Shown here: positions 16,199 through 62,148 of the stretch, piece by piece
How positions within the stretch are numbered: position 1 is the first letter of the stretch
How the letters are laid out: each line of letters opens with the position of its first letter
Source: Rhizodiscina lignyota
Taxonomy: Eukaryota
Assembly: GCA_010015805.1 (NCBI GenBank)
Contig: ML978123.1
Coordinates: forward strand, 2,480,001 to 2,544,000
Length of the DNA stretch: 64,000 nucleotides
Direction: 5' to 3'
The notes under the pieces: generated by a model
Seen by the model: only the letters and a program-made list of their open reading frames with translations
The model's database searches: none
Told to the model about the DNA's origin: nothing
Made by a program: the position numbers and the translations under genes

Positions 16199-17641
16199 TC
16201 ACTCTAAAAATCCCCACACATTGTTCAGGCTCTCCGCAAACGTCGGATGCGCAATGCACATTGCTTGCAGATCCCACCACTTGAGCCCGCCCCACATCGC
16301 CATCTGCACCTGGCTCATAATCTCACCGCCCTCGACGCCCAAACACGTGAACCCCAATATCTCGCCCGTCTCTGCATCCACGACGCCCTTCATCATACCG
16401 CGACTCTCGTCCGTCTCAAGAGCCCGGGCCACATATGCCATCGGCATCCGAGCAACCTTGATCTTGCGCTCTGGCTGATCGCGCCGCAGCTCGTTCTCAT
16501 GGAGTCCGACATGGCCAAGTTGTGGGTCAGTGTACACAACGTATGGCATCTTGTTCTCTCGGTCAGTGCTGGTTTTCGGCTCGAAGCCGGGTTTCGAAGC
16601 AGCGGAGATGAGGTTGGCTTGCAGGATGCGGAAGTCGTCGTATGAGACGTGCGTGAATGCTGGCCCGCCCTTGACGTCCCCCAGGGCGTAGATCCCTGGC
16701 ACGGACGTCTCCAGCTTTGGGTTCGCCTTGACATGGCCTCTCTTGTCGACTTCGATGCCTGTTGCTGGGAGATTCAGGGTGTCGGTGTTCGGGGTGCGGC
16801 CAGCTGCGAAGAGGATGTGCGAGCCAGTGAGCGTCTTGTCTCCGTCCTTGTTCGTGATTTCGAGGCTTATTGGCAGGTCTTTATCCGAGGAGCTAGAAAG
16901 CCGGGAGGCGTTCGATTTGAGATGCACGGTAATGCCATCTTCTCTCAAGATCTCCAGCATCTTATTCGCGATGTCATCGTCCTCACGCCCCAGCAGTTGT
17001 GCGCCTCGCTGTATGATGGTAACTTCTGCTCCTAGCCTGCGGAATAACTGCCCGAACTCTAGTCCGATATAGCCGCCTCCCAGCACTAGCAAGTGCTTCG
17101 GTACCTCTCCGAGCTCTTGCACGCTAGTAGAGTCGAGTACCCTGCTGCCGTCAACGTCTTCTACACCTGGGAGGTTCGGCTTGGCCGGCCTTTCCCCGAC
17201 ATTCAAGACTATGATGTCGCCCTTGGCGTTCTTGATTTCACCCGATTCTGTCATCTTGATCTCGACAGTCTTCTCGCCTGTGAACTTTGCTTCTCCGATC
17301 AACACGTCCAGACCTTTCACATCCTTCAGTCTCCTCTCGCTCCCTCCCCGGAAGCTCTCAACAATGTCTCTCTTCCTTTGCCTCACCTTCTCCATGTTGA
17401 CGTTTACGTCGCCAACGCGCACCCCATAGTCATTCGCCCCGCGTCTCGCCAAATAAGCCACGCGGCCAGACGCGATCATCGTCTTGGTCGGCGTGCAGCC
17501 CTCGTTAATGCAGCAACCGCCGATGTGGGAGCGCTCAATCAGCGCGACCGTCTTCCCGGCGTTGGCGAATGCTGAGGCGAGTGGAGTGCCGCCTTGGCCG
17601 GAGCCGAGGACGAGCACATCGTAGGACTTTGGGGACGACAT
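16199..17641 (-). CDS. Class-I pyridine nucleotide-disulfide oxidoreductase (mercuric-reductase-like/RclA-like), intronless
   Basis: MSSPKSYDVLVLGSGQGG, redox CxxxxC in GGCCINEGCTPTK, GGGYIGLEFG, YALGDV and C-terminal HPTFAE. The likely start is 17641; the upstream in-frame extension is uncertain. Confidence 0.9.
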   Translation of the reverse strand: MSSPKSYDVLVLGSGQGGTPLASAFANAGKTVALIERSHIGGCCINEGCTPTKTMIASGRVAYLARRGANDYGVRVGDVNVNMEKVRQRKRDIVESFRGGSERRLKDVKGLDVLIGEAKFTGEKTVEIKMTESGEIKNAKGDIIVLNVGERPAKPNLPGVEDVDGSRVLDSTSVQELGEVPKHLLVLGGGYIGLEFGQLFRRLGAEVTIIQRGAQLLGREDDDIANKMLEILREDGITVHLKSNASRLSSSSDKDLPISLEITNKDGDKTLTGSHILFAAGRTPNTDTLNLPATGIEVDKRGHVKANPKLETSVPGIYALGDVKGGPAFTHVSYDDFRILQANLISAASKPGFEPKTSTDRENKMPYVVYTDPQLGHVGLHENELRRDQPERKIKVARMPMAYVARALETDESRGMMKGVVDAETGEILGFTCLGVEGGEIMSQVQMAMWGGLKWWDLQAMCIAHPTFAESLNNVWGFLE

Positions 17642-18997
17642 TTTGGCAGCAGTTGAGAATCTTGACCAGCGGCCTGGAGAAGGGGAATCAAATTTGAAAG
17701 CGACAGGGATTCGGCGGAGACGATATGTGAGCGAAGAAGACGATGTAAAGATTGAGATTGAGGAGCGTGGATATAAGAGTGAGAAGTTACGGTGCACGGA
17801 CATGCAGCAAGAGCTGTGGGATAGGGGTTTGATAGCTTGGATGATGCCTCTTGAACAGAGGGGTTTATTTCGCTGCATTGTGTAAGTTCCACAATGTCAA
17901 ATTCAATGCCTCGTAAGACAGTCAATACGATACCTTCAATTGACGGCGATCAAAGCTCTTTGCAGTCTTATACGGCGACTAGCAACGACGCAGCTAGATT
18001 TCTGTGTGAGGATGAGGAATCGGATTTTGGCAGTTTGCTCTGCTCTACGATAATTGCGTTACCGAGAAGTTATCAATTTCACGCCAACCTGCAAGATCAA
18101 CTGAGTGCTAGGATTCCTAATTACTTAGGTCGTTACATCACCTCACACTAAACTGCACTTGTCGTCCTGGTCCATTCAGCTGCTAACGGCCTGACGGTCG
18201 CCCCGCAGAAAGCTGGGCGATGCGATGACACACCAAGCATGCCGGTGACTAAGCCTCGTGTGGACTTCAATCACATGCCAGGTGGTGGGAGAAAGCAGTC
18301 TGAGAGTGCGAATCATTCATGAATTGCTTTGGAAACTTAACAACGCAATACAGAGTACAAGGTCGGCGGACGAAGTGGCTGAGACAAGGAGGTGGGTTGG
18401 AGAACTGGCCACCAAGGTGCACAACCATCCTCAATCAGATCCACCTCGAGCTGATCGCTTTTAGCTGGACTAAATTTAGTTGAGCGGATGCAGAAAAGGA
18501 TTTGATCAAGCTACATATCAACCAGAAGTACCATTGAAGGTCGATATTTGGTAGAGATGCCATGATACGTATCCACGAATGGTTGTCCAAACGCGGCGCT
18601 TAGCCTGAGCAGTGGATGACTGGACATGTATAAAGACGCGTCGAGCAGTTGGACGAAGCAGAAGAATCTCATCTACATTTAGTATAGAACGGTGGTATTC
18701 CTACAAGTGAATCGTAAAGTATCCAAGCACCATGAACATGCAAACTCTTTCAAGACGTGGGCGAACGGCCGGTATCAAGCCCCTGATCCCCAACCTTGAA
18801 AAAACGCCTCATCTATGGTATACAGCTGATGGTGATCCCCAAACCCATTCCCAAGTGCACACTGTGTCACCAACTTTTGGAGAGACCGTATGAGCGTCGT
18901 GTCCGGTCATTACCGAAGAGAGAACCTGAAATCGTCTGTACAAAACTGTATAGCTCGGTTGAATCCGCAGAGCAGTTTAATCCAATCATTATGTCTG

Positions 18998-36404: not shown

Positions 36405-37074
36405 GTTGTAAAGACACTTTCTCTGTTTCGATAGTTTGTGCTCCAGAGGCGGTTCACGTAGCATTCGTTAACACATCGCATAAGCAAGGAGCTGCCCGGA
36501 AAACGGTTGGCGAATATAGTCTCCTCCTCAGCCCATGGAATATCACGTGATACACAGGAGTTGCGAGGTTCAGCACGCTCTAAATACAGTTAGCCTTGTA
36601 ATTTAGCATACAATGCAAAAGAATACTTACTGCCCTTTCTGGACCTCAGCCGTGCTGTCGTCACTAAGATTGACGCTCGCAAAACATGAGTTTGAGAGTG
36701 GAATGAACCAATGAGAGGTCTGCTGCACGTGTTTGGTGGCAGCCCTGGCCAATCATCATCCCAAGCTCAGAGAGTGCACAGCACCCGATGTTCTTCCCAA
36801 CCTCGCACTTAGATGCTCGCCACACCACACCGAATTCGCTGGGGTATCATTTCGTATGCGGCAGCCGCATCCCGTCGAATCCGCTTGAGTGTAAAGAAGA
36901 GGTAGGAACGGAAACATATCCTCTGTTTACAAGAGGACGAAGTGACGGAAGCCGCGAGCAGCTATGAGTGGGAAAGCTGGAATGCGAGTGTAAAGCCACC
37001 GCGGCAGGAGCAAGTCGAAATCGGGCGTAAGCAAGTGCTAGTCGAAGTCCACAACAAGCAAATGGTGGCTGAAT

Positions 37075-37370
37075 ACCGCCGCAAGCATGAGTGAAGGACG
37101 CTGCAGGCATACTGATCGAGAAGGCTGCCGCAAGAGTGATCGAAAGCCCCTGTAACCTGAAGCATATTGATCGAAGGCCGCCGCAGGTATACCGATTGAA
37201 TCGCCACGAGACTGATCGAAGGCCGCCACGAGACTGATCGAAGGCTGCCGCAAGACTGAAGCATACTGATCAGTGACCGAAGGCTGCCGCAACCTAAAGT
37301 ATACTGATCGAAGACCGCCGCAAGAGTGATCGAAGGCTGTCGCAACCTGAAGCTGATCGAAGGCCACCTC
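37075..37370. repeat. Complex minisatellite, about 10 degenerate copies of TGATCGAAGGCYGCCGCAA
   Basis: The core recurs at about 37113, 37137, 37168, 37213, 37235, 37274, 37305, 37327 and 37354, mostly with ~22 or ~31 bp spacing. Confidence 0.85.
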
Positions 37371-37439
37371 AAATGCCGAAACTTCGAGAACTCCGAACGC
37401 CAAAGAAAAAACTCAAGAAATAAACTGGCTCCTTTCGAA

Positions 37440-38130
37440 GCGGCCAGTGCTTTTCAGGGTCTCAGTCTCAGTTATGACATGGGAATTTAACGTACAAGAG
37501 ATAACTCTAAGCACCTAAAGTATTAAGAAGAACAAGTAAGGCTTAGCTGCTATATTATATATCATAGGCTGAAAGACACCTGCCATCGCTTGAGAAAATG
37601 CGAAGGGATCACTAGCTTCTTTGAAGGACAACAGTCATCTGCCCTGGCCTATTCAACTGAACAGCTGTAGTAAGCACAAGCTTTATTCTTCAGTACGAGC
37701 GAGAGCGTCCCTGAGAGCTCGACTAAATATACATCAGAGGGTATTTATCTAAAACACGCAACGTTAGTATGTATAATCCTAATCTGTAGTAACTACTGAG
37801 GATATATATATACCTGCGATTTGATATGTTGTAGATAACTTAACTATTTTGTCACCGACTTAACAGAGTCGCCGGTGAAGTTGCATCTCTTAATATAGAA
37901 AAATGGCCGTACTCCTCGTCTAGGACGATCTATAAAATAAGCTTTTGATAGGATGGATTATCGACGGAATAGAGCTCGGTTTCGATATTACTATTAGCGC
38001 GATAATGGACGATCCCAACTTGTACCTTCAGGTTGCCCGCCTTGATGCTTTTGAGACTTTGAGCAACTGGTAAGTTTCGAGCGTGGTGGTCTGTAGTCAT
38101 TTGGCGTGCCCCTATCTTTCGGTGGGGCAC
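37440..38130 (-). other. AT/TpA-rich degenerate relic (possible RIP-mutated gene or transposon fragment)
   Basis: Visibly more AT- and TA-rich than its flanks. The minus-strand frame is broken by stops and carries an intron-like GTATAT...CTAAC...TTTTAG segment at 37749-37813. Confidence 0.4.
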
Positions 38131-52749: not shown

Positions 52750-53432
52750 GCGACCTGAGTCAACGGCTTGTCTACTCTCTTGTATGCTGCCTGTGTGTAT
52801 TAATGGAGCGAAGTCAAACGGTGTGCGATGGCTCGATTTAATAGAGCTAGACGTCCAATATCTAAGCGTGACAATACTTGAAAGTGGCATGCTGCAAACG
52901 ATCTCAGCCTCCTTTCATGCTATGCACGCTTTGCAGACTGGATCAAAGGTGAAATCCCATGGACGTACTTTATTCTAATTCCCAGGAGGCAAACTACCAG
53001 GGAGTCTATATTTGTTCTCTGGTGGTAGCCCCGCCCCCTCACCAAGGAGTCGTCACCGAATGACCGCGCCCATGAAGCAGCGCACACAACTTTCTTTGAA
53101 GCCAAGACAAGCGATAGTAGCATCTTGCTTGCGCCTCTCTATCACATGGTAGCGTGCAGAGAACCTAGCGATTCTCGAGCTATTATGGCGTCGATAAACG
53201 GATGGTATGAGAACGGATGAGAAAGGTAATATCTTCGTGGCGCATTCGACGCTCGGTAGACTTTACTGATCGCAAATATGGAGCGTCTTCAGCTCGAAGA
53301 GCGACAAAGGCAGTTGGACGTGGGAGTACTAATGTGCCTGACAGTGGGGCCAGTCTAAATACGTCGTTTATTGTCTAGAGGGAGAGCGGCACAGTGGTGG
53401 TTCTGGAATGGCGCTGCACAGGCGTGCTGTGA
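52750..53432 (+). pseudogene. Heavily decayed SMP-30/gluconolactonase/LRE (beta-propeller lactonase) gene
   Basis: Manual translation APLY(frameshift)GSVQRT*RFSSYYGV(frameshift)DGMRTDEKGNIFVAHSTLG (53201-53257), then GSTNV...NTSFIV*RESGTVVVLEWRCTGVL*. Stops at 53166-53168 and 53376-53378. The 5' boundary is approximate. Confidence 0.7.
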
Positions 53433-53840
53433 GAAAAGAAACCTAACGTTCAGGAGGTCAGCCAAGGTCTACGTCAATAATGCTGCCCGTGTTACGGAGC
53501 GAGTGAGTCTGTCTGAACTGTAACACAGCTGTGCTTTTGAGTAATGAGGGATCCACCTCAACTGCTGCCTGACCAAGCACGAAACTTGAGCTATTCCTCT
53601 CCTCGATGTTCTGGATTCGAGTGGGGTAGGTCTGTCTTTACAATGCGGATGATCGCGAATTTGATGAACCTTCGACTTCGGGTGCTTGGAGGGTGGTGTT
53701 CTTTGGAGGATTCGAATCCCTGCTTCCGCAGCCAGTTGCCCCTTTTAGCGGTAGAGAATCGTCCGCCCTGCTCTTCCACTCTGATAAAGACAGATGAATC
53801 CTCTTATAGATTGTGATTGCTCTACTGAGGCTCTGCAAAG

Positions 53841-54375
53841 ATGACAGTTGTTCATATGGGTATGTAGGTTCAAATTCAATCCATCCTGCTCATCTGCTGC
53901 GTCTTAAGAGCATGATATCTAACGAGAGCTCATCAGTCCTTTTCAAATTTCGCCAGGACGTCTCCAAAGCAATTAGAGAAAAGTTCCGAACGGAGTTGAA
54001 GACACTCAAGCGCTTATCATGTGTACAAGATCACCGGTTGATCGTTGGCGGGCCGTCCGTCACAAGTCCAATTGAACGGAGCATAGGATATCATTATGCG
54101 CTGCTGAGCTTCCACAAGGATCGAGAAGCATTAGCTGAGTACCAAGCCTCTGATGAGCACCATAGGTCAGAATTGCAAGTTCTCAATTGTTTGGTTCGTT
54201 AACTTACGATACTGGCAGGGTGACAAGTGAACACATGTGGCCTTACAACGAGGATCTTATTCGATTCGACTTCGAGGTTGATAAAGAAGACGAGTATATG
54301 TGTCAATGGATGGCAAAGTCAGCACTGAATGGGGTAGCGACTCCTTCCTCATTGTCATCGAGAAAAACAGAATAG
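53841..54375 (+). CDS. Dabb (stress-responsive A/B barrel) protein, 3 exons
   Basis: MTVVHM|VLFKFR..., GYHYALLSF..REALAEYQASDEHH, DLIRFDFEV. Confidence 0.85.
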
Positions 54376-54547
54376 ACTATCTACCCAAGTTTCCTCCAAC
54401 ATTCAGGCTAGCCTCTTCGATGCCCTTGACCGAATTCTTTAGCAAATGCAACGGCTGTGTTCGCCGAAGCATCCGTCTATTTGAGGATCTGTACAAGAAG
54501 GCCAAGCTTGTGTAGAGCTAGATTTAACAACTTTTAGATGCTAATCT

Positions 54548-56540
54548 CTAGCTAGGACCTGCGGCAGTCAGAAAGTCGAAATCTGCGCCTTGTTGTGCCT
54601 GAGTAACTGAGCGTATATACAGTCCACGATAGCCCCTCGCCTGCTCCGGTGCAACAAACGACTGCGCATTGCCACCATCCCTTTGGCTTTGGAGATGCTT
54701 TTGCCTCTCTTCCAGCCGTCGCTTCATCTCCGCATCCGGGATGTCAATTTTAATGACCCTCTCTTCAACATCACATGTGATGATATCTCCATCTCTGACG
54801 ATTCCGAGAATAGATTCTGGGTCTGCGGCCTCAGGAGAAACGTGTACAACAATTGTGCCACCAGCAGTCCCGCTTATCCTCCCATCGGAGATCCTAAGCA
54901 TGTCTTGCACTCCTTGGGCACCGAGTTTTCTCGGAATAGGAATTAGTCCTGCCTCGGGCATTCCTGGATTTCCCTTGGGTCCAATATTCTGCAGCACAAG
55001 TACACTGTCCGCAGACACTTCCAGGTCTGGATCATCGATTCGTCGAGTGAGATCCGCTGATCCTGCGAACACAACTGCTCTCCCTGAATGCCGAAGCAGA
55101 TGGCGATATTTAGATGCACTCGCTTTTATAACCGCGCCGCCCGGTGCGAGGTTCCCGCGTAACACAACAAGCGAAGAAGACGAGTATAGAGGCTCCTTGA
55201 ACGGCTGGATGCAATACACCGGACTTTCTTTCGGCACACGAGCGAATGGCACGGATGCTAATTCCTCTCCTAGCGTTCGCCCTGTGACCGTCATGGCATC
55301 GAGATAGAGCAGTGGCTTCAGTTCATGTAGAAGGGTTGCCATACCACCAGAGTTATGGAAGTCTGTCATGTAATTCTCTCCACTCGGTTTGAGGTCCACC
55401 AACAAGGGCGTTTTACGACCAATCTCGTCAATGGTGTCTAGGTTAATGCTTCCTGCGACACCTGGATGACGTCCAATAATAGCCATCAGGTGCACGACCG
55501 CATTTGTAGAACCGCCAATGGCTTGTAGTACGGTGATAGCGTTGAGGAACGATTCACGTGTAAGAATCTCCTGAGGCTTCAACTGCTTCTTGAATGCGGT
55601 TACAGCATTCGCTCCAGTCTGTTCGGCGATGCGGAGCCGAGTAGACGAAACAGCTGGCGCAGATGCACCCTTGAAAGGCATCATACCGAGAGCGACGAGA
55701 ATACACGCCATTGTGGATGCTGTACCCATGACCCCACACGTACCCGCCTAATGAAATCAGCGAGGCTTCAGAAAGAGGACGCGGAAATCGTTACTGTTGG
55801 AGCAAGCTCGTCATTGACAGCTGAGATTTCCTCAATATCCAAGCCACCGGCTCTAAACTTGGCCCAATTGTTCCTGCAGTCTGTACAGGCGCCTAATCTG
55901 ACGCCATTGTGACTTCCAGGCATCATTGGCCCAGTCACGAGATGCAGAATTGGCTTGTTGGCAGAGATTCCGCCCATCAGTTGCGCGGGAGTAGTCTTGT
56001 CGCACCCTTCTAGGCGTCAGTAGATACTCAAGGAATTGATATATTGGACAAGTCGGACCTCCAATCAAGACCACCGCATCACAGGGCTGCGCGCGAATCA
56101 TCTTCCGGGCCAATTAGCGCAGTTCATAATCTATTTCTCTGCAAAATATTTACCTCCTCAGTGTCCATGCTCATCAGATTCCTCAGATACATACTAGTGG
56201 GCGATGCAAAAGTCTCATGCAGACTTATTGTCGGAAAGTCTATCGCCAGGCCTCCATTGAGTTGAACGCCACGCTTGACAGCGTCAATGAGCTGCGGGAT
56301 GTTCGCATGGCAAGGATTGAAGCTCGAATATGTGTTCACAATGCCGATTATGGGCCTCGACAATGCATCATCGCTATATCCCGCTGCTTTAATGAAGGCC
56401 TTTCGCAAGAACAGTGAGAAATGAGCGTCGCCATATGAGGGCAAACTCTGGCGGAAGCCAACGTTGGACGTCAGTGGACGGAAGAGGTCGTAGTCCGTGT
56501 TCGGAGCATCTCCGTTCTGATGTTCATCGCCTTGGTTCAT
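54548..56540 (-). CDS. IlvD/EDD-family [2Fe-2S] dehydratase, sugar-acid dehydratase type, 4 exons
   Basis: Cys ligands NPCH, GG|CDKT and GTCGVMGTASTM; RNLMSMDTEE|MIRAQP; GGSTNA; PGMPE; SDGRISGT. The acidic N-terminus is unlike a mitochondrial presequence. Confidence 0.92.
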
Positions 56541-57363
56541 AGTGAAATGAATTTTTTGTTCCCATCAACAGGAGTCACAGCTCTTTCAATTCATGACATT
56601 CTCCGTAATTCAAATACGCATACTCCGTATGGATGAGTCCCGATCCGCAACGGAGAAGTTACCGCAGTCGGGTCGATCGCGGCTGTATTAGTTAAAATGT
56701 CAAGGCTAGTAAATAAACCCAAGTGCTGTTGTTAACTATAACAAAACATCATTCAAACTTACGATGGAGCTCAAGGTGGCTTCTGCTGCAATTCAACTTA
56801 TAAGATAACCCTTGGTCTAAGTGAAACACAAGACTTTTAAGGATACCAAAATCAACAGAGGGCCTTAACCCTCCAATACAGTGAATGTTGCAGTTCAGGT
56901 AATTACGGCTAAAGAGGCCATGCCCTGTTGCAACTGGACGGCATCGAGAGTCCGATTCGACAATATAAATATTGCCTCTGATAGGCAAGCGGAGATGCGA
57001 ACTCCTGCCATCAGGCTGTTTCGTTGGGCGTGTTGATTGTCTTCGTCTGCTGTTATGATTACGACCATCCAATAGCGGATCTCCAATCGTTTGGAATGGA
57101 CACTGGGCTTCATTTTGAATGCCAAAATTGAAGAGGTTGGGACGGAGAAGTGGGGATTTTCCGAGCGGTACGGACAATATCCGTTCATCCTCGAAGTCGG
57201 CGGAAGATCAATTAAAATCTTCTCACCCTTGTCCATAAAACAAGAAGCTCCTGTTGAGATACAGAGCCAACGCTCATTCCGATTCTTGATGTGTGACCAC
57301 ACTATCAGTACTTAAACTGCTTATTTTGAGCTGTATTCCAATCTTTAGACGTCAGCAATCGGG
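56541..57363. promoter_or_regulatory. Divergent promoter with repeated CGG-type (Zn2Cys6-like) elements
   Basis: CGGAGAA at 56651 and 57143 and reversed at 56599-56605; CGG-N8-CCG at 56651-56664; CGG-N7-CCG at 57171-57183; SYGGRG-type GTGGGG at 57150-57155. Confidence 0.4.
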
Positions 57364-58546
57364 ATGGCGCAGAACGAGGGGCCGGCCGAGTCTGATAAAT
57401 CCTACGTCGATGCAGCTGATGCACGAAAATTTGTCCACGCTGTTCTTATTGGAAATGGTGTGCCATCAGAAAATGCAACCATCGTTGCACGTTGTCTCGT
57501 GTCAGCCGATCTACGCGGCGTTGATACACATGGCATGAATCGTGAGAACCACCTAGAAGCCAGCGATACATGTGCTTTGGTCAATCAGCTCATGACTACC
57601 GTTAATGATCAATATCGTACTTGGATCTTTGCTAATCTGTGTCACAGGGATACCCAGTTATATGGCTCGAATACGAGAGGGCGTTCTCGACGCTACCGCG
57701 CAGCCCGAAGTCAAACAAGTAACTCCCGTAGTAGCACATGTCGACGGCCGCAATGGTTTCGGGTTCGTCGCTGCGCATGCAGGTATGGCTGCCGCGATTG
57801 AATCCGCACGAATTTATGGCATTGGCATGGCTAGCGTAGCTCACTCCAATCACTTTGGCATGAGCGCATGGGTTGTCCAGCAGGCTCTCGACGCGGATAT
57901 GATGAGCCTTGTATTCACCAACTCCAGTCCCGCGCTGCCTGTATGGGGTGGCCGGAGTAAGCTCATGGGAGTATCTCCCATCGCGTGCGGAGCTCCCGGA
58001 AAGGACAAGCCCTTCATCTTGGATATGGCGCCTTCGATTGCTGCGAGAGGAAAAATCTACAAGGCAAAGCGACGAGGAGAGAAGATTCCGCTTGACTGGG
58101 CCTTGGATGCAGACGGCAAGCCAACGGATGATCCTGCAGCTGCATTGGAAGGTGTTATGCTTCCAATGGGAGGACCCAAGGGATCGGCGCTTTCGATCAT
58201 GATGGACGTCTTCTCTGGAGCATTATCTGGCTCTGCTTTTGCTGGACATGTTACCAACCCGTATGATCCTTCGAAACCCGCAGACGTCGGACATTTCTTG
58301 GTTGCGATTAAGCCCGACCTTTTCATGAGTCTCGACGAGTTCCGTGATAGGATGGAGTACCTCTACCAACGCGTCGTTGGATCTGATAAAGCCGCGGGAG
58401 TAGATCGTATCTACTTCCCAGGGGAACTTGAACAGCTAGCGCAGGAACAAAGAGAGAAGACTGGAATACCGCTCGTACAGGCAGAGATCGATGCTCTGAA
58501 TACAGAAGCCCAGCGAGTAGCCGTCGGACCCCTCATAGTAAAGTAA
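57364..58546 (+). CDS. Malate/L-lactate dehydrogenase type 2 (Ldh_2; AllD/YiaK/ComC-like), 2 exons
   Basis: ADLRGVDTHGMN|RIPSY, VDGRNGFG, HSNHFG, LDMAPS..ARGKI, WALDADGKPTDDP, LPMGGPKGSAL, IYFPGE. Confidence 0.93.
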
Positions 58547-59443
58547 CCGAAGAGATGTATTCTGCAACTGTCTTGAATGTAGTACACTGCATTTGGATAG
58601 ACTTGTCACAGTACTTACTATCGCTATCCGGTCATCAAATCCTTCATCAAAGCACAGAAGAACCGGGCACGCGGCTGACAAAATAGTTGAGCCCGCTTGA
58701 CTGAACGGTGCAGTAAGAAAAAGTTTTGTTCAGCATCTCTGAGAGCTCGATTGAATATATCAGGGAGTACTTATCTATAACACGCAGCTTTAGTATGTTT
58801 AATGTATATCAACTAACGAGTATACGCGTCCCCGCGAAACAGCTCAGCATGTAAGTTCAAAAGAGAGATCCACAGCTGCTATTTAAGCCGCGCAGTCAAT
58901 TCAAACACACTCTGAAGCATAAGTGATAAACGTTCTATCGGTGCTGTCGCCTGTCTTGAAGATGGAGACCTGCTTGCCTTAGTACTTTATAATTTTACCG
59001 GCTCTTTCTGCGATCACGCTCATGTCCGAGATTAAATATAATCAAGCCTCCAGTAATGCTCTCGCATCTCTTGAAGAATAACACGTTCAGTTGGATATAC
59101 TACAACCAACCCTGTACTAGGCACCTAGGGCTCGAGCGGATCCGCGGTGCCATAGTGATGGCCTTCGGAATCTCTATAACGAGACTCAAAATCATCGATG
59201 ATATCGATTCTCGAATACACTTCCGCGATTCTTCCGGCAACACCTGACACTATCTGTCACAAAGTGTTACTTAGCGCCACTGCCCACGGGCCACGTGTCA
59301 CGCGTAATCGTGTATATAAACGATCTCCACGGGCACGGATTCCTTTCTTAATCAACTCTTTGCAGCCGTGGTCCACTGCTGTCTTCGCTGAATGTCTCCC
59401 ACCGACTAGAGCTATTAACAAACATTGAACAATACCGAACACA

Positions 59444-60537
59444 ATGGCACCGAGCGACTTAGTTAAGGGATCGTTTGCACTGCGCAAAGCTCGAATTGGA
59501 ATCGCCCCGCTTGACCTTCCTGAGCCTTTGCAAGGACATAGAGAGGAGCACTCGAAGTAATTCTCTATCGAGGACTGTCATGTATTTTTCTGATTCAAGC
59601 AGGTTACTCGCTGCGCAGTCCTACAGCGATTTTACGATTATCTGTGGCGGCGAACGACTTCAGGTCAGTGTAACTGTAATTGTTAATTGCTGATGAACAC
59701 CTTAAACACACAGGTCCACCGCGTAGTTCTTGGCACTCGGTCTCAGTATTTCGACAATCTCTTTAACGGGCAGTTCAAGGTACGCTGTCTCGCCTGGGCT
59801 AAGGTTGACAAAGCTGATCACTTGCATAGGAGAAACATACTGGCGAGATCCGGTTTGATGACGAAGATCCGAACACGATCCGAGCCATGGTTGAATACAT
59901 GTACACACTGTCCTTGCCGGAAGGATTTCGCATGAGCTATTTGTTCCAGGGCGACGAGACTGAGAGGTCACCTTGGAATTGTCTTCCACTCAAAGAAGCT
60001 CTTGATTGGCACCAAAAGAGAACGCTCAACCTCGCCGCGATAGCTATCGCCGCTGAAAAGTACTTTGTGTTCGGTCTTAGCGAACTGGCTATCTGGCACA
60101 TTGGTAAAGGATTTGACACCATGCCTCTGGATTACCTCTTTCCATCAGAAGTTGCCTTCAAGCTGGTAGATTTGGTGTATTCAAACACCTGTGAAGGCTC
60201 TTGTCTGCGATCGGTTATCAGGAGATGCATGCTTCAATCGCAGCTGCACCTATTCCGCGAGGGCAAGGATGCGAAAGATTTCTTGATATCGCATCCCGAT
60301 TTTATGCACGACATGTTCTCTACCATTCTCGAAGAGACAAAACCGCGATCCAGTGCATGCTGTGGAACGGCACTTTCGAAGATGCTTGTTGAGGAAGGAT
60401 GCCCTCGCCTCAAGCCTCTCGCTGATGGCAAAAAGACGCATGAACAGAAACCTACTGTCATTCGAACGTTTGGCGCGGCCACAGTGCTATGCGATCTCAG
60501 CGACGAAAGTCCGATCTATCGTCTTCCAGTTCCTTGA
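59444..60537 (+). CDS. BTB/POZ-domain protein, 4 exons
   Basis: Splicing gives YSDFTIICGGERLQ|VHRVVLGTRSQYF..GQFK|E..DEDPNTIRAMVEYMY..AAEKYFV. Confidence 0.85.
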
Positions 60538-60811
60538 AAAGAACCGCGTCTGAGATACGAAATGGGGAATGAAGTGGCTTGGCAGACTTTCGGGAGTGAA
60601 ATTCGAAGCTGAAAGAGAAGAAAATGAATAAAACCTCTGACTGGCGTTTGCGTTTGCGAAATGGACGAAAGAAAGGGGTCAAAAAAGCACACTATGCATC
60701 ATTTGGCGATGCCGGCTGAGAGTTTGGAGTGATATGAAGACGCTTGGAGCGAAGGAGCAGTTTAGATGAATACTCTCTAGACTCTTCCTATTACATGAGG
60801 TACTAAAATGA

Positions 60812-62148
60812 TCATTCCTGGTTCATGATAACAATCTTGATATCTCCTCTCCGGCTCTGCGCCTCAAATGCATCTTGTGTCTTTGTGAGAGGGTAGGTTG
60901 ACGTCACTAATGGGCTCACATCCACGAGTTTCCGATCAACGAGATCAACCGCATCCTCGAAACAGCCAGGCGTATACCGAACAGTTCCTTTGCGAGTCAA
61001 AATGTGAATCACGGGAGCGAGAGCAGTAACACGGCACTTACCAACAATTGTGAGATCCTTCGTAGTGACCTGGAGCATCGGAACACGAGGCGGTTTATGT
61101 TGAAGGCCTGTTTGGACATCTTGTGGCGAATTAGCACAAGCGGCGTTAGAACGGAACCTGAAAATAATTGGCGAGGCCTTACATGTTCCTCCAGCCCTCA
61201 ACGAAGCGAATCCCATCTGAAGGGCAGATTCGGCGCCGGTGACCTCGATCGCTACATCTACACCAAAACTCAAGCCCAGCTCTTTCAGTCTCGCCGTCAT
61301 AAACTCCTTCGCGAAGGCCATTGAATCACCCTGTATATCCCGAGGGACCAGAAATCCATCAGTTGCATAGTGTTTGACCGCAAAATCGACTCTCGACTGT
61401 TCGATATCAAACGCTACGACCCTCTTCGCACCATATGCTTTGCACACGGCCATTATGAGAAGCCCCAGGGCGCCGCATCCACTAGAAGGACCAATTAACT
61501 CTAAGTTCCGTAAGGGAATATTTTGGGGTCATCACTCACAAAACAACGATCGTTTGGTGAGCTCGTATATTAGCACGTCGGCCAAGCTGCACTGCAACTG
61601 CCAAAGGCTGCACGCATCCAGCTTCAATCCAAGACACAGTGTCTTTGATCGGTACTGCCATTATCGCAGTGATACGAACATACTTGCATAAAGTTCCATC
61701 TGTTGGGGGGATACTGAAATGCTTCATATTACTGCATGTGTTCGGTTGGCCTCTGATGCAGAAGTAGCACCTTGAAATGAGTCAGCACTGAGCAGTCTCC
61801 TCAAAATGGAAAGCAGGTAATGGAAGGAGAGGTAAAATACTTCAGACATGGATATCCAGGCTCAATAACAACTCTTTCACCCACACTCCTGTCTTTAACC
61901 CCAGAACCAAGCTCGACAATAACCCCAGCGGACTCATGTCCAAGAGCGACTGGAGACGGTAGTCCGACCGTCCAGGTGTGGAAGTCAGATCCACATATTC
62001 CCGTCGAAATGACCTGAACTATCACCTCGTCATCTTTCAATGGGCTATCGAGCAACGGTCGATTCTGAAGCTCAAACTGTTTAGGCCCTACCAAGACGGC
62101 AAGGAGATTAGCAGGGTTGGTCATTTCACCATTCATTATGGACGTCAT
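60812..62148 (-). CDS. Zn-dependent polyol (sorbitol/xylitol/L-arabinitol-type) dehydrogenase, MDR family, 5 exons
   Basis: GICGSDFH, LGHESAG, structural Zn site EPGYPCLK|CYFCIRGQPNTC, GCGALG, DI and GTVRY. The start codon is uncertain (62148 or a downstream ATG). Confidence 0.9.

What the first reader, a model, noticed from the sequence alone, without database searches (positions are those of the whole stretch)
52750..62148. Candidate fungal non-phosphorylative sugar-acid catabolic cluster (lactonase relic + Dabb + IlvD/EDD dehydratase + Ldh_2 + polyol dehydrogenase)
Seen: within ~9 kb lie a decayed SMP-30 lactonase, a Dabb protein, an IlvD/EDD dehydratase divergent from an Ldh_2 dehydrogenase, and a Zn polyol dehydrogenase. 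Established: dehydrogenase, then SMP-30 lactonase, then IlvD/EDD dehydratase is the core of the bacterial Weimberg/Dahms pentose routes. Ldh_2 enzymes reduce 2-keto acids (e.g. YiaK on 2,3-diketogulonate). Well-known fungal pentose use is oxidoreductive, and the characterised fungal sugar-acid dehydratases are mostly enolase-superfamily. Inference: this is a clustered pathway for an aldonic acid or rare sugar, with Ldh_2 acting on the 2-keto-3-deoxy product. No transporter, aldolase or regulator is present in the window.
Basis: partly seen in the sequence, partly recalled or inferred. Interest (0 to 1): 0.8.

Follow-up and report, generated by a model that had tools for sequence, protein, structure and literature searches.

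The report
Fungal gene trio for unknown acid
Three of the five flagged genes (an iron-sulfur dehydratase of likely bacterial origin, a hydroxy-acid dehydrogenase and a small barrel protein) recur together in filamentous fungi and probably break down a still unidentified plant-derived sugar acid, while the broken lactonase and the polyol dehydrogenase look like chance neighbours.

Summary
All five sequences are present: intact Dabb, IlvD/EDD, Ldh_2 and polyol dehydrogenase genes, plus a decayed SMP-30 fragment. An unmentioned BTB gene separates Ldh_2 from the polyol dehydrogenase.

Only part of this is a conserved cluster. IlvD/EDD and Ldh_2 lie within two gene numbers in 12 of 13 named fungi (pairs picked by shared contig). 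Among 64 non-redundant metagenome Ldh_2 loci, 8 carry the dehydratase and 3 the Dabb; none carries SMP-30 or the polyol dehydrogenase. Other recurrent partners are a sugar porter, a Zn2Cys6 factor and an SDR.

The dehydratase nests in an uncharacterised proteobacterial clade. It keeps every catalytic ligand, lacks the C-terminal His of known sugar-acid dehydratases, and has a clade-wide GACTDCR motif. Bacterial neighbours hint at dicarboxylic sugar acids. In published A. niger RNA-seq, an SDR-TF-Ldh_2 trio rises together early on D-galacturonate (one column per condition; orthology unproven).

Verdict: a real, labile catabolic module for an unknown 2,3-dihydroxy acid, not a five-gene Weimberg/Dahms pathway. 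This scan noted the same module in another genome (e1-7467690).

The parts
53053..53429 (+). Decayed C-terminal fragment of an SMP-30 (Drp35-like) lactonase gene; pseudogene; probably not part of the conserved module
   Evidence: Frameshift-aware score 115/109 vs shuffles 32-34; 3 frameshifts, 2 stops; N-terminal half not detectable; the intact paralogue's best PDB hit is Drp35; no SMP-30 match in 64 Ldh_2 loci
53841..54375 (+). Dabb (stress-responsive alpha/beta barrel) gene, exons 53841-53859, 53937-54165, 54219-54375, 134 aa; module member
   Evidence: Open spliced model; Pfam PF07876; 62-69% identical exon-2 matches beside Ldh_2 in L074, L075, L077, L080; one match in own genome
54548..56540 (-). 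IlvD/EDD [2Fe-2S]/Mg dehydratase, exons 56540-56154, 56101-56059, 56006-55795, 55747-54548, 613 aa; module core
   Evidence: P0001; PRK06131 724 bits vs cut-off 539; C77, C145, C218, E109, D146, K147, E479, S506 align with RlArDHT ligands
56541..57363 (.). 823-bp intergenic region between the divergent dehydratase and Ldh_2 genes; candidate shared promoter (inferred)
   Evidence: the same head-to-head layout in L020/L022, L034, L049/L050, L062/L066. CGG/CCG pairs are present but no conserved motif was shown
57364..58546 (+). Ldh_2-family NAD(P)-dependent 2-hydroxy/2-oxo acid oxidoreductase, exons 57364-57541 and 57648-58546, 358 aa; module core
   Evidence: P0121; Pfam PF02615; below the cut-offs of the ComC, AllD and YiaK models
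59444..60537 (+). BTB/POZ-domain gene, 315 aa; unrelated neighbour that interrupts the proposed cluster
   Evidence: Pfam BTB 21.4 bits vs cut-off 20.5; open 4-exon model; 0 of 64 Ldh_2 loci
60812..62148 (-). Zn-dependent polyol (xylitol/sorbitol-type) dehydrogenase paralogue, 5 exons; intact but probably not part of the module
   Evidence: 0 of 64 Ldh_2 loci; in Pleurostoma the relative is 206 accession numbers from Ldh_2

Best explanation
Dabb + IlvD/EDD + Ldh_2 are the local remnant of a widespread, frequently reshuffled Pezizomycotina catabolic module; elsewhere it also holds an SDR, a Zn2Cys6 regulator and a sugar-porter permease. It degrades a small, probably plant-derived polyhydroxy carboxylic acid without phosphorylation. 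SHOWN by sequence: intact genes, all Fe-S, Mg and base residues of the dehydratase, and linkage in many fungi. INFERRED from family chemistry: the dehydratase removes the C3 hydroxyl of a 2,3-dihydroxy acid to give a 2-keto-3-deoxy acid, and Ldh_2 interconverts a 2-hydroxy and a 2-oxo acid in the same route. INFERRED, weaker: the substrate carries a second acid group. My single most likely scheme is an aldarate-type one such as L-tartrate to oxaloacetate (dehydratase) to malate (Ldh_2); the alternative places Ldh_2 and the SDR upstream, setting the C2 configuration before dehydration. Within this explanation I put a diacid at about 0.4, a C4-C6 aldonate at about 0.35 and something else at about 0.25. 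Dabb's role is unknown; a ring-opening or anomer-handling accessory is a guess. The lactonase relic, BTB gene and polyol dehydrogenase are bystanders.
For: Linkage in named fungi: 12 of 13 pairs within 2 gene numbers and 1 at 6 (6 pairs by locus tag; 7 by accession), spanning Pleosporales, Xylariales, Hypocreales and Glomerellales (orders recalled). Metagenome loci: dehydratase in 8 of 64 groups and 4 of 26 with at least 3 kb on both sides, against about 0.0006 per locus by chance; the linked loci fall on several branches of a quick Ldh_2 tree. L074/L077 carry SDR-IlvD-Ldh_2-Dabb-TF together, L075 the same set. The fungal clade (support 100) nests in a proteobacterial clade (99) apart from a C-terminal-His relative, P0252. 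In 80 bacterial loci the neighbours are Bug/TTT-type binding proteins (30; label recalled, no NCBIfam hit), SDR (16), DHDPS-family (15 + 5), galactarate-dehydratase-like (10), talarate/galactarate-dehydratase-like enolase (8), RraA-type aldolase (8) and 2-hydroxyacid dehydrogenase (7); most are below their family cut-offs. The clade has conserved Arg/Lys where RlArDHT has other residues (R188, K47), and mostly basic C-tails in the bacterial members in place of the terminal His. A. niger (PMC5153877 supplement): adjacent SDR 1163005, TF 43882 and Ldh_2 1156951 rise 3.3, 4.1 and 2.8 log2 at 2 h in the column that the gaa genes mark as D-galacturonate; r = 0.91-0.97 over 8 columns.
Against: No enzyme assay or fungal mutant of these genes was found, so the substrate is inferred only. 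Most metagenome Ldh_2 loci lack the dehydratase (22 of 26 with long flanks). In A. niger none of the 7 IlvD/EDD genes is on the Ldh_2 contig, and which of them is the orthologue was not established; three correlate equally with Ldh_2 (r 0.81-0.83). The A. niger table has one column per condition and no 2-h point for other sugars, so the peak may be a generic shift response; at 5 h Ldh_2 is up only 1.1 log2. Ldh_2 is flat on galactarate (-0.1), which argues against galactarate itself. Ldh_2 is near the dehydratase in only 4 of 80 bacterial loci, directly adjacent in 2, so the pair is mostly a fungal assembly. This genome has no close homologue of the regulator (best 24-32% in the top hits), and the permease's best match is on another contig (55%). 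The named pairs were picked by equal contig length, which favours linkage; C. sublineola has differing contig lengths and was not resolved. That the basic residues face the substrate pocket was not tested; the model is weak at both termini.
Confidence: 0.65

Rival explanations
1. One reading: all five genes form a Weimberg/Dahms-type pentose or aldonate route (dehydrogenase, lactonase, dehydratase, Ldh_2).
For: Closest solved structures are L-arabinonate and related sugar-acid dehydratases (42-43% identity). A real SMP-30 relic adjoins Dabb, and an intact SMP-30 paralogue sits beside a sugar porter elsewhere in the genome.
Against: SMP-30 and polyol dehydrogenase are in 0 of 64 loci; the lactonase is broken; a BTB gene intervenes; the AraD model scores 572 vs cut-off 882; terminal His in 0 of 86 fungal and 0 of 77 bacterial clade members; no KDP dehydratase or aldolase in the ORFs scanned.
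Confidence: 0.07
2. A sulfonate route: the dehydratase acts on a sulfo-sugar acid or sulfolactate and Ldh_2 is a sulfolactate dehydrogenase.
For: Best PDB and NCBIfam hits of Ldh_2 are L-sulfolactate dehydrogenase. Three SAR116 loci carry a HisD-like gene upstream; sulfopropanediol dehydrogenase HpsN is HisD-like (recalled). An extra anion site would fit a sulfonate too.
Against: Ldh_2 scores 279 vs cut-off 500 for ComC. The three loci are all SAR116, and the one gene scanned passes the plain hisD cut-off. No sulfonate-specific gene recurs in the fungal loci scanned. The A. niger trio responds to galacturonate.
Confidence: 0.07
3. The genes share a regulon or niche but act in different reactions; Ldh_2's true partner is the sugar porter or regulator, and the dehydratase link is looser.
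For: The sugar porter is the commonest neighbour (20 of 64, one of them a 27% match) and occurs in none of the 8 groups that hold the dehydratase. The dehydratase is unlinked in A. niger.
Against: The dehydratase link recurs on several branches, in head-to-head and tandem layouts, which suits selection for co-inheritance; 12 of 13 named pairs are within two genes.
Confidence: 0.15
4. A spare branched-chain amino-acid dihydroxy-acid dehydratase.
For: Same fold and catalytic residues; database names say dihydroxy-acid dehydratase.
Against: TIGR00110 409 vs 618 and PRK00911 427 vs 644. Two other paralogues (C17, C4) form a separate distant clade. Oliver et al. 2012 place such group-2 genes with proteobacteria and show Ilv3A is the biosynthetic enzyme.
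Confidence: 0.03

Closest known systems
Bacterial IlvD/EDD sugar-acid dehydratases: P. ureilyticus enzyme (8ej0/8epz), R. leguminosarum L-arabinonate dehydratase (5j83/5j84), C. crescentus D-xylonate dehydratase (5oyn)
   Same: Fold (TM 0.76-0.80); three Fe-S cysteines, Mg ligands and catalytic Ser; 42-43% identity to the first two.
   Different: No C-terminal His; GSGT replaced by the clade-wide GACTDCR with two extra Cys (84 of 86 fungal, 79 of 79 bacterial); different N-terminal helix; below the AraD and XylD model cut-offs; no working lactonase or aldose dehydrogenase beside it.
Aspergillus fumigatus Ilv3C/Ilv3D, the 'group 2' fungal DHAD-like proteins (Oliver et al. 2012, PMC3445565)
   Same: A fungal IlvD-like lineage clustering with alpha/beta-proteobacteria, possibly by old lateral transfer; not predicted mitochondrial; function left open. 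My tree shows the same nesting.
   Different: The passages read report no gene cluster, partner or substrate. I could not compare sequences directly, so which of Ilv3C/D is the orthologue is untested.
Ldh_2-family enzymes ComC (L-sulfolactate dehydrogenase), AllD (ureidoglycolate dehydrogenase), YiaK (3-dehydro-L-gulonate 2-dehydrogenase); A. niger NRRL3_08886
   Same: Family and fold. Aguilar-Pontes et al. 2018 (PMC6231085) find NRRL3_08886 orthologues in nearly all species they compared and list them under malate dehydrogenase.
   Different: Below every named model's cut-off. The passage read gives no assay for the malate assignment. Identity of NRRL3_08886 with this orthogroup was not tested.
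Fungal non-phosphorylative sugar-acid pathways (D-galacturonate Gaa, L-rhamnose Lra, D-glucuronate Glu, L-fucose)
   Same: Logic of dehydrating or re-oxidising sugar acids without phosphorylation, often in small clusters with a Zn2Cys6 factor.
   Different: GaaB is annotated enolase/mandelate-racemase type (LraC likewise, recalled), not IlvD/EDD; GluC is a D-2-hydroxyacid dehydrogenase, not Ldh_2.

Membership tests
IlvD/EDD superfamily | Three Cys ligands of the [2Fe-2S] cluster (RlArDHT C59, C127, C200) | tested here: met
   C77, C145, C218 align (reference residues from PMC9795676)
IlvD/EDD superfamily | Mg ligands and catalytic Ser (E91, D128, K129, E453, S480) | tested here: met
   E109, D146, K147, E479, S506 (reference residues from PMC11316719)
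IlvD/EDD superfamily | Two-domain fold | tested here: met
   Pfam PF00920 + PF24877; model pLDDT 71.5, TM 0.79 to 8epz
Sugar-acid dehydratase (SADHT) subfamily | Fully conserved C-terminal His completing the neighbour's active site | tested here: not met
   P0001 ends in Ser; last residue His in 0 of 86 full-length fungal and 0 of 77 bacterial clade members
L-arabinonate dehydratase AraD; YjhG/YagF D-xylonate dehydratase | Score above curated HMM cut-off | tested here: not met
   572 vs 882 and 136 vs 808
Sugar-acid dehydratase (SADHT) subfamily | Dehydration of aldonates in vitro | not testable with these tools
   No assay found for this clade in the searches run
Branched-chain dihydroxy-acid dehydratase (IlvD/Ilv3) | Score above TIGR00110 / PRK00911 cut-off | tested here: not met
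   409 vs 618 and 427 vs 644
PRK06131 subfamily (uncharacterised IlvD/EDD) | Score above curated cut-off | tested here: met
   724 vs 539
Weimberg/Dahms pathway cluster | Aldose 1-dehydrogenase and intact lactonase upstream of the dehydratase | tested here: not met
   Lactonase is a pseudogene; the dehydrogenase is a polyol type; neither recurs
Weimberg/Dahms pathway cluster | KDP dehydratase plus semialdehyde dehydrogenase, or KDP aldolase | tested here: not met
   None among ORFs scanned from 48 kb to the window end and 19 kb beyond; only selected ORFs were scanned upstream of 48 kb, and the rest of the genome was not searched for them
ComC / AllD / YiaK (named Ldh_2 enzymes) | Score above curated cut-off | tested here: not met
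   279/500, 210/496, 162/316
Conserved fungal metabolic gene cluster | Linkage of the same orthologues across distant taxa above chance | tested here: met
   Met for IlvD/EDD-Ldh_2(-Dabb); not met for SMP-30, BTB or polyol dehydrogenase
Conserved fungal metabolic gene cluster | Co-expression of members | tested here: inconclusive
   A. niger SDR-TF-Ldh_2 co-vary, but with one column per condition, orthology unproven and the dehydratase unlinked

The most novel reading that the evidence does not exclude
The module encodes an undescribed fungal route for a dicarboxylic sugar acid from pectin or ascorbate turnover (for example L-tartrate to oxaloacetate to malate). It is built round a new IlvD/EDD subfamily of proteobacterial origin that replaced the C-terminal His with basic residues and carries an extra conserved CxxC motif, and it would be the first aldarate-specific IlvD/EDD enzyme known to me.
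Probability: 0.25. Interest if true: 0.72.

Novelty: new variant of a known kind. Interest (0 to 1): 0.5.

Why it matters
The group-2 fungal IlvD-like genes were left without a function by Oliver et al. 2012, and the fungal Ldh_2 is listed as a malate dehydrogenase in a genome-based model. Linking them, with Dabb, an SDR, a regulator and a permease, gives a defined gene set, a substrate class and a first inducer lead (D-galacturonate in A. niger) for an unassigned branch of fungal carbon metabolism. It also marks a bacterial-fungal dehydratase subfamily with a distinct active-site signature. IlvD/EDD enzymes are described as rate-limiting in engineered non-phosphorylative pathways (PMC11316719), so a fungal member is of practical use too. 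It is a pathway-gap lead, not a new kind of biology.

Tried and rejected
Pfam SGL search of the genome missed the relic; it was found only by frameshift-aware alignment to paralogues. Three other SMP-30 paralogues scored 34-40, at noise level.

RNA runs: no RNA holder listed; not used as evidence.

The sigma-70 promoter/terminator scan is irrelevant to a fungus. A search for CGG-pair motifs in four divergent intergenic regions showed nothing conserved.

The careful Ldh_2 tree did not finish; only the quick tree is used. In the dehydratase tree long branches meet among the outgroups, so I rely only on the nested clade. The first motif count used a faulty pattern and is replaced.

The M. thermophila Weimberg paper describes an engineered bacterial pathway, not a native one. 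Galactarate as inducer of Ldh_2 was rejected (flat); the seven genes deleted in PMC5153877 include neither family. L-fucose was set aside because PMC12370193 proposes LGD1 for that step.

Ten literature searches found no paper describing this cluster (three returned no paper at their thresholds). The gene ids AN5138, AN7358 and NCU05683 were recalled. The library lacks most subscription journals and cannot match the literal string with a slash.

The ESM Atlas gave only unnamed Ascomycota Dabb clusters. Earlier scan notes e1-2440681 and e1-2469077 concern bacterial loci and did not change my reading. No complex prediction was run.

Minor neighbours seen and not counted as members: a class II aldolase in L029/L031, an aldehyde dehydrogenase in L013, and a Zn-binding dehydrogenase in L061 that the window's polyol dehydrogenase does not match at 1e-5.

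Full report
Source and gene models. The window is G000:C3:2480001-2544000 in a 33.4-Mb, 33-contig genome. Database proteins identical to the window's dehydratase and Ldh_2 exons are named Rhizodiscina lignyota KAF2102090.1 and KAF2102091.1, and the polyol dehydrogenase KAF2102093.1. Spliced models with GT-AG introns are open for Dabb (134 aa), IlvD/EDD (613 aa) and Ldh_2 (358 aa), and for a BTB/POZ gene (315 aa) and the Zn polyol dehydrogenase (363 aa). The stretch is flanked on the left by RTG2 and VAC14 homologues. To the right lie an unassigned ORF, His_biosynth/GATase and ribosomal S4/S9 genes, and then a sugar porter.

The lactonase relic is real but dead. Pfam found nothing in six short frames there, and a genome search with PF08450 listed 11 places, not this one. 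A frameshift-aware alignment to two intact paralogues (L167 and L168, 66% identical to each other) matched their residues ~180-315 to 53053-53429, with scores of 115 and 109. Shuffles averaged 32 and 34 (max 40) and six control stretches scored 27-37; the alignment has 3 frameshifts and 2 stops. The N-terminal half scored at shuffle level. The intact paralogue's best solved relative is Drp35.

Synteny in named fungi. From the top-120 lists for the dehydratase and Ldh_2 I took the 14 species whose two proteins share a contig length. Six have locus tags 1-2 steps apart: F. lateritium, Fusarium LHS14.1, F. euwallaceae, Stylonectria, Daldinia and Cosmosporella. Seven were checked by accession: Dendryphion 2 apart, Thozetella 2, Xylariales AK1849 1, Xylariaceae FL1019 2, Dactylonectria 2, C. 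phormii 2, Mariannaea 6. That is 12 of 13 within two and one at six; the fourteenth (F. vanettenii) has only the shared contig. The selection favours linkage. C. sublineola has different contig lengths and was left unresolved. The polyol dehydrogenase search gave 48 hits, at most 55% identical among full-length relatives; the one sharing a contig with an Ldh_2 (Pleurostoma) is 206 accessions away.

Synteny in metagenomes. The scan matched 303 stretches, confirmed 170 and kept the best 80, which favours intron-poor genes. Merging at 95% DNA identity left 64 groups. The dehydratase is in 8, Dabb in 3, a sugar porter in 20 (one at 27%), a related Zn2Cys6 factor in 5, the L077-type SDR in 5 (three at 23-37%), a second SDR in 3 and GFO-type oxidoreductases in 5. 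SMP-30, polyol dehydrogenase and BTB are in 0. Among 26 groups with at least 3 kb on both sides the dehydratase is in 4 and the porter in 13. Chance for one gene within 20 kb in 35 Mb is about 0.0006. L074/L077 and L075 carry SDR, IlvD/EDD, Ldh_2, Dabb and TF together. On a quick tree the dehydratase-linked and porter-linked Ldh_2 genes are interleaved, which suggests one orthogroup with repeated reshuffling. In this genome no close regulator homologue was found, three SDRs match at 50-54% at distant places, and the porter's best match is on C1 (55%).

What kind of dehydratase. It passes only the uncharacterised PRK06131 model (724 vs 539) and fails AraD, XylD, IlvD and Edd. Its closest solved relatives are 8ej0 and 5j83. 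All Fe-S, Mg and base residues named in PMC9795676 and PMC11316719 (passages) are present. PMC11316719 calls the C-terminal His fully conserved in sugar-acid dehydratases; it is the last residue in 0 of 86 full-length fungal and 0 of 77 bacterial clade members. The clade instead shares GACTDCR (84 of 86 fungal, 79 of 79 bacterial) and a YGDxxFxxLR helix (84 of 86, 79 of 79). In a 53-row quick tree the 17 fungal rows (support 100) nest in this bacterial clade (99). This agrees with Oliver et al. 2012, who placed 'group 2' fungal genes with proteobacteria and left their function open (passages and section 5). No rooted test of transfer direction was run.

Bacterial context. The 80 loci are heterogeneous. 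Recurrent neighbours are Bug/TTT-type binding proteins (30; label recalled), SDR (16), DHDPS-family (15 and 5), galactarate-dehydratase-like (10), talarate/galactarate-dehydratase-like enolase (8), RraA (8) and 2-hydroxyacid dehydrogenase (7). A tartrate dehydrogenase above cut-off and a tartronate-semialdehyde-reductase-like gene each occur in 2 loci. Ldh_2 is in 4 of 80 loci and adjacent in 2. This leans towards sugar diacids but names no substrate.

Expression lead. Supplementary file 1 of PMC5153877 was cut when stored; I read rows. It lists one IPR003767 gene in A. niger, 1156951, directly downstream of TF 43882 and SDR 1163005. gluC marks the Ga columns as glucuronate and gaaA-D/gatA mark Gl as galacturonate (my inference, matched to Table 1 of PMC4870679). 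The three genes rise 2.8, 4.1 and 3.3 log2 at Gl 2 h and 1.1, 2.5 and 1.9 at 5 h. Ldh_2 is flat on glucuronate and galactarate. None of seven IlvD/EDD genes is on that contig. 1125454 rises 6.7 log2 with the same timing, but 1128495 and 1115666 correlate as well (r 0.81-0.83), and orthology is not established. There is one column per condition and no 2-h control, so this is a lead only.

Mechanism. Shown: intact genes, the catalytic set, and linkage. Inferred from family chemistry: dehydration of a 2,3-dihydroxy acid to a 2-keto-3-deoxy acid, coupled to a 2-hydroxy/2-oxo interconversion by Ldh_2. For C5/C6 products, reduction is a dead end. So Ldh_2 either acts upstream with the SDR to set C2, or the substrate is a C4 diacid whose product, oxaloacetate, is reduced to malate. 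L-tartrate has the same C2/C3 arrangement as the known substrates L-threonate and D-gluconate (stereochemistry recalled). I favour a diacid slightly because of the bacterial neighbours and the Arg/Lys replacements. I could not test whether those residues line the pocket; the model has pLDDT under 50 at both ends.

Comparison and novelty. It works like a bacterial sugar-acid dehydratase route but is not a member of the SADHT subfamily or a Weimberg/Dahms cluster by the tests above. Ten searches found no description of this cluster; subscription journals and unseen supplements could hold one. PMC9869559 (passages) is an engineered pathway. PMC6231085 (passages) and PMC9781776 (supplement search) list an A. 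niger malate/L-lactate dehydrogenase, NRRL3_08886, under malate dehydrogenase. PMC12370193 and PMC4870679 were read as passages.

Verdict. Observation confirmed; interpretation partly supported. New variant of a known kind; interest 0.5.

Noticed in passing
A. niger gene 1087590 (chr_401:2323395-2325369) in PMC5153877 supplement: An IlvD/EDD gene induced 224-fold on galactarate (0.2 to 45 FPKM) that is not among the seven genes the authors deleted; a candidate for the unknown fungal galactarate dehydratase. Its clade is unknown.
   Followed up: partly
G000:C2:2219001-2226000 (L202): The genome's second Ldh_2 (49% to the window's) sits with an amidohydrolase, an MFS transporter, a D-2-hydroxyacid dehydrogenase and an RraA-type aldolase; it resembles a lower aromatic meta-cleavage module (recalled).
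   Followed up: no
window 60812-62148: The polyol dehydrogenase has Gln where three own-genome paralogues have Glu in the VEP motif; four relatives inspected share it, marking a distinct subfamily.
   Followed up: partly
IlvD/EDD residues 182-188 (window, exon 3): Clade-wide CxxC motif (GACTDCR) in addition to the three Fe-S cysteines; possible second metal or redox site.
   Followed up: partly
window 56007-56012: The acceptor of the second dehydratase intron is a tandem TAG/AAG site; both choices keep the frame, but only the second keeps the GGCDKT motif.
   Followed up: yes
L154, L159, L164: SAR116 loci place the dehydratase downstream of a HisD-like gene and an SDR; in L164 Zn-dehydrogenase-like and molybdoenzyme-like ORFs follow (those two labels are my reading).
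   Followed up: partly
G000:C2:1641098-1644130 (L203): An intact Drp35-like SMP-30 paralogue of the relic lies next to a sugar porter.
   Followed up: no
window 36850-37450: Overlapping frames show repeated degenerate peptide units, suggesting a short dispersed or tandem repeat.
   Followed up: no
window 16202-17896: A long single-frame pyridine nucleotide-disulphide oxidoreductase ORF.
   Followed up: no
A. niger chr_301:119923-132986 in PMC5153877 supplement: A glucuronate-induced block with an aldo-keto reductase, two SDRs, a class II aldolase, SMP-30, a TF, a sugar porter and a Zn dehydrogenase, about 110 kb from the Ldh_2 trio.
   Followed up: no
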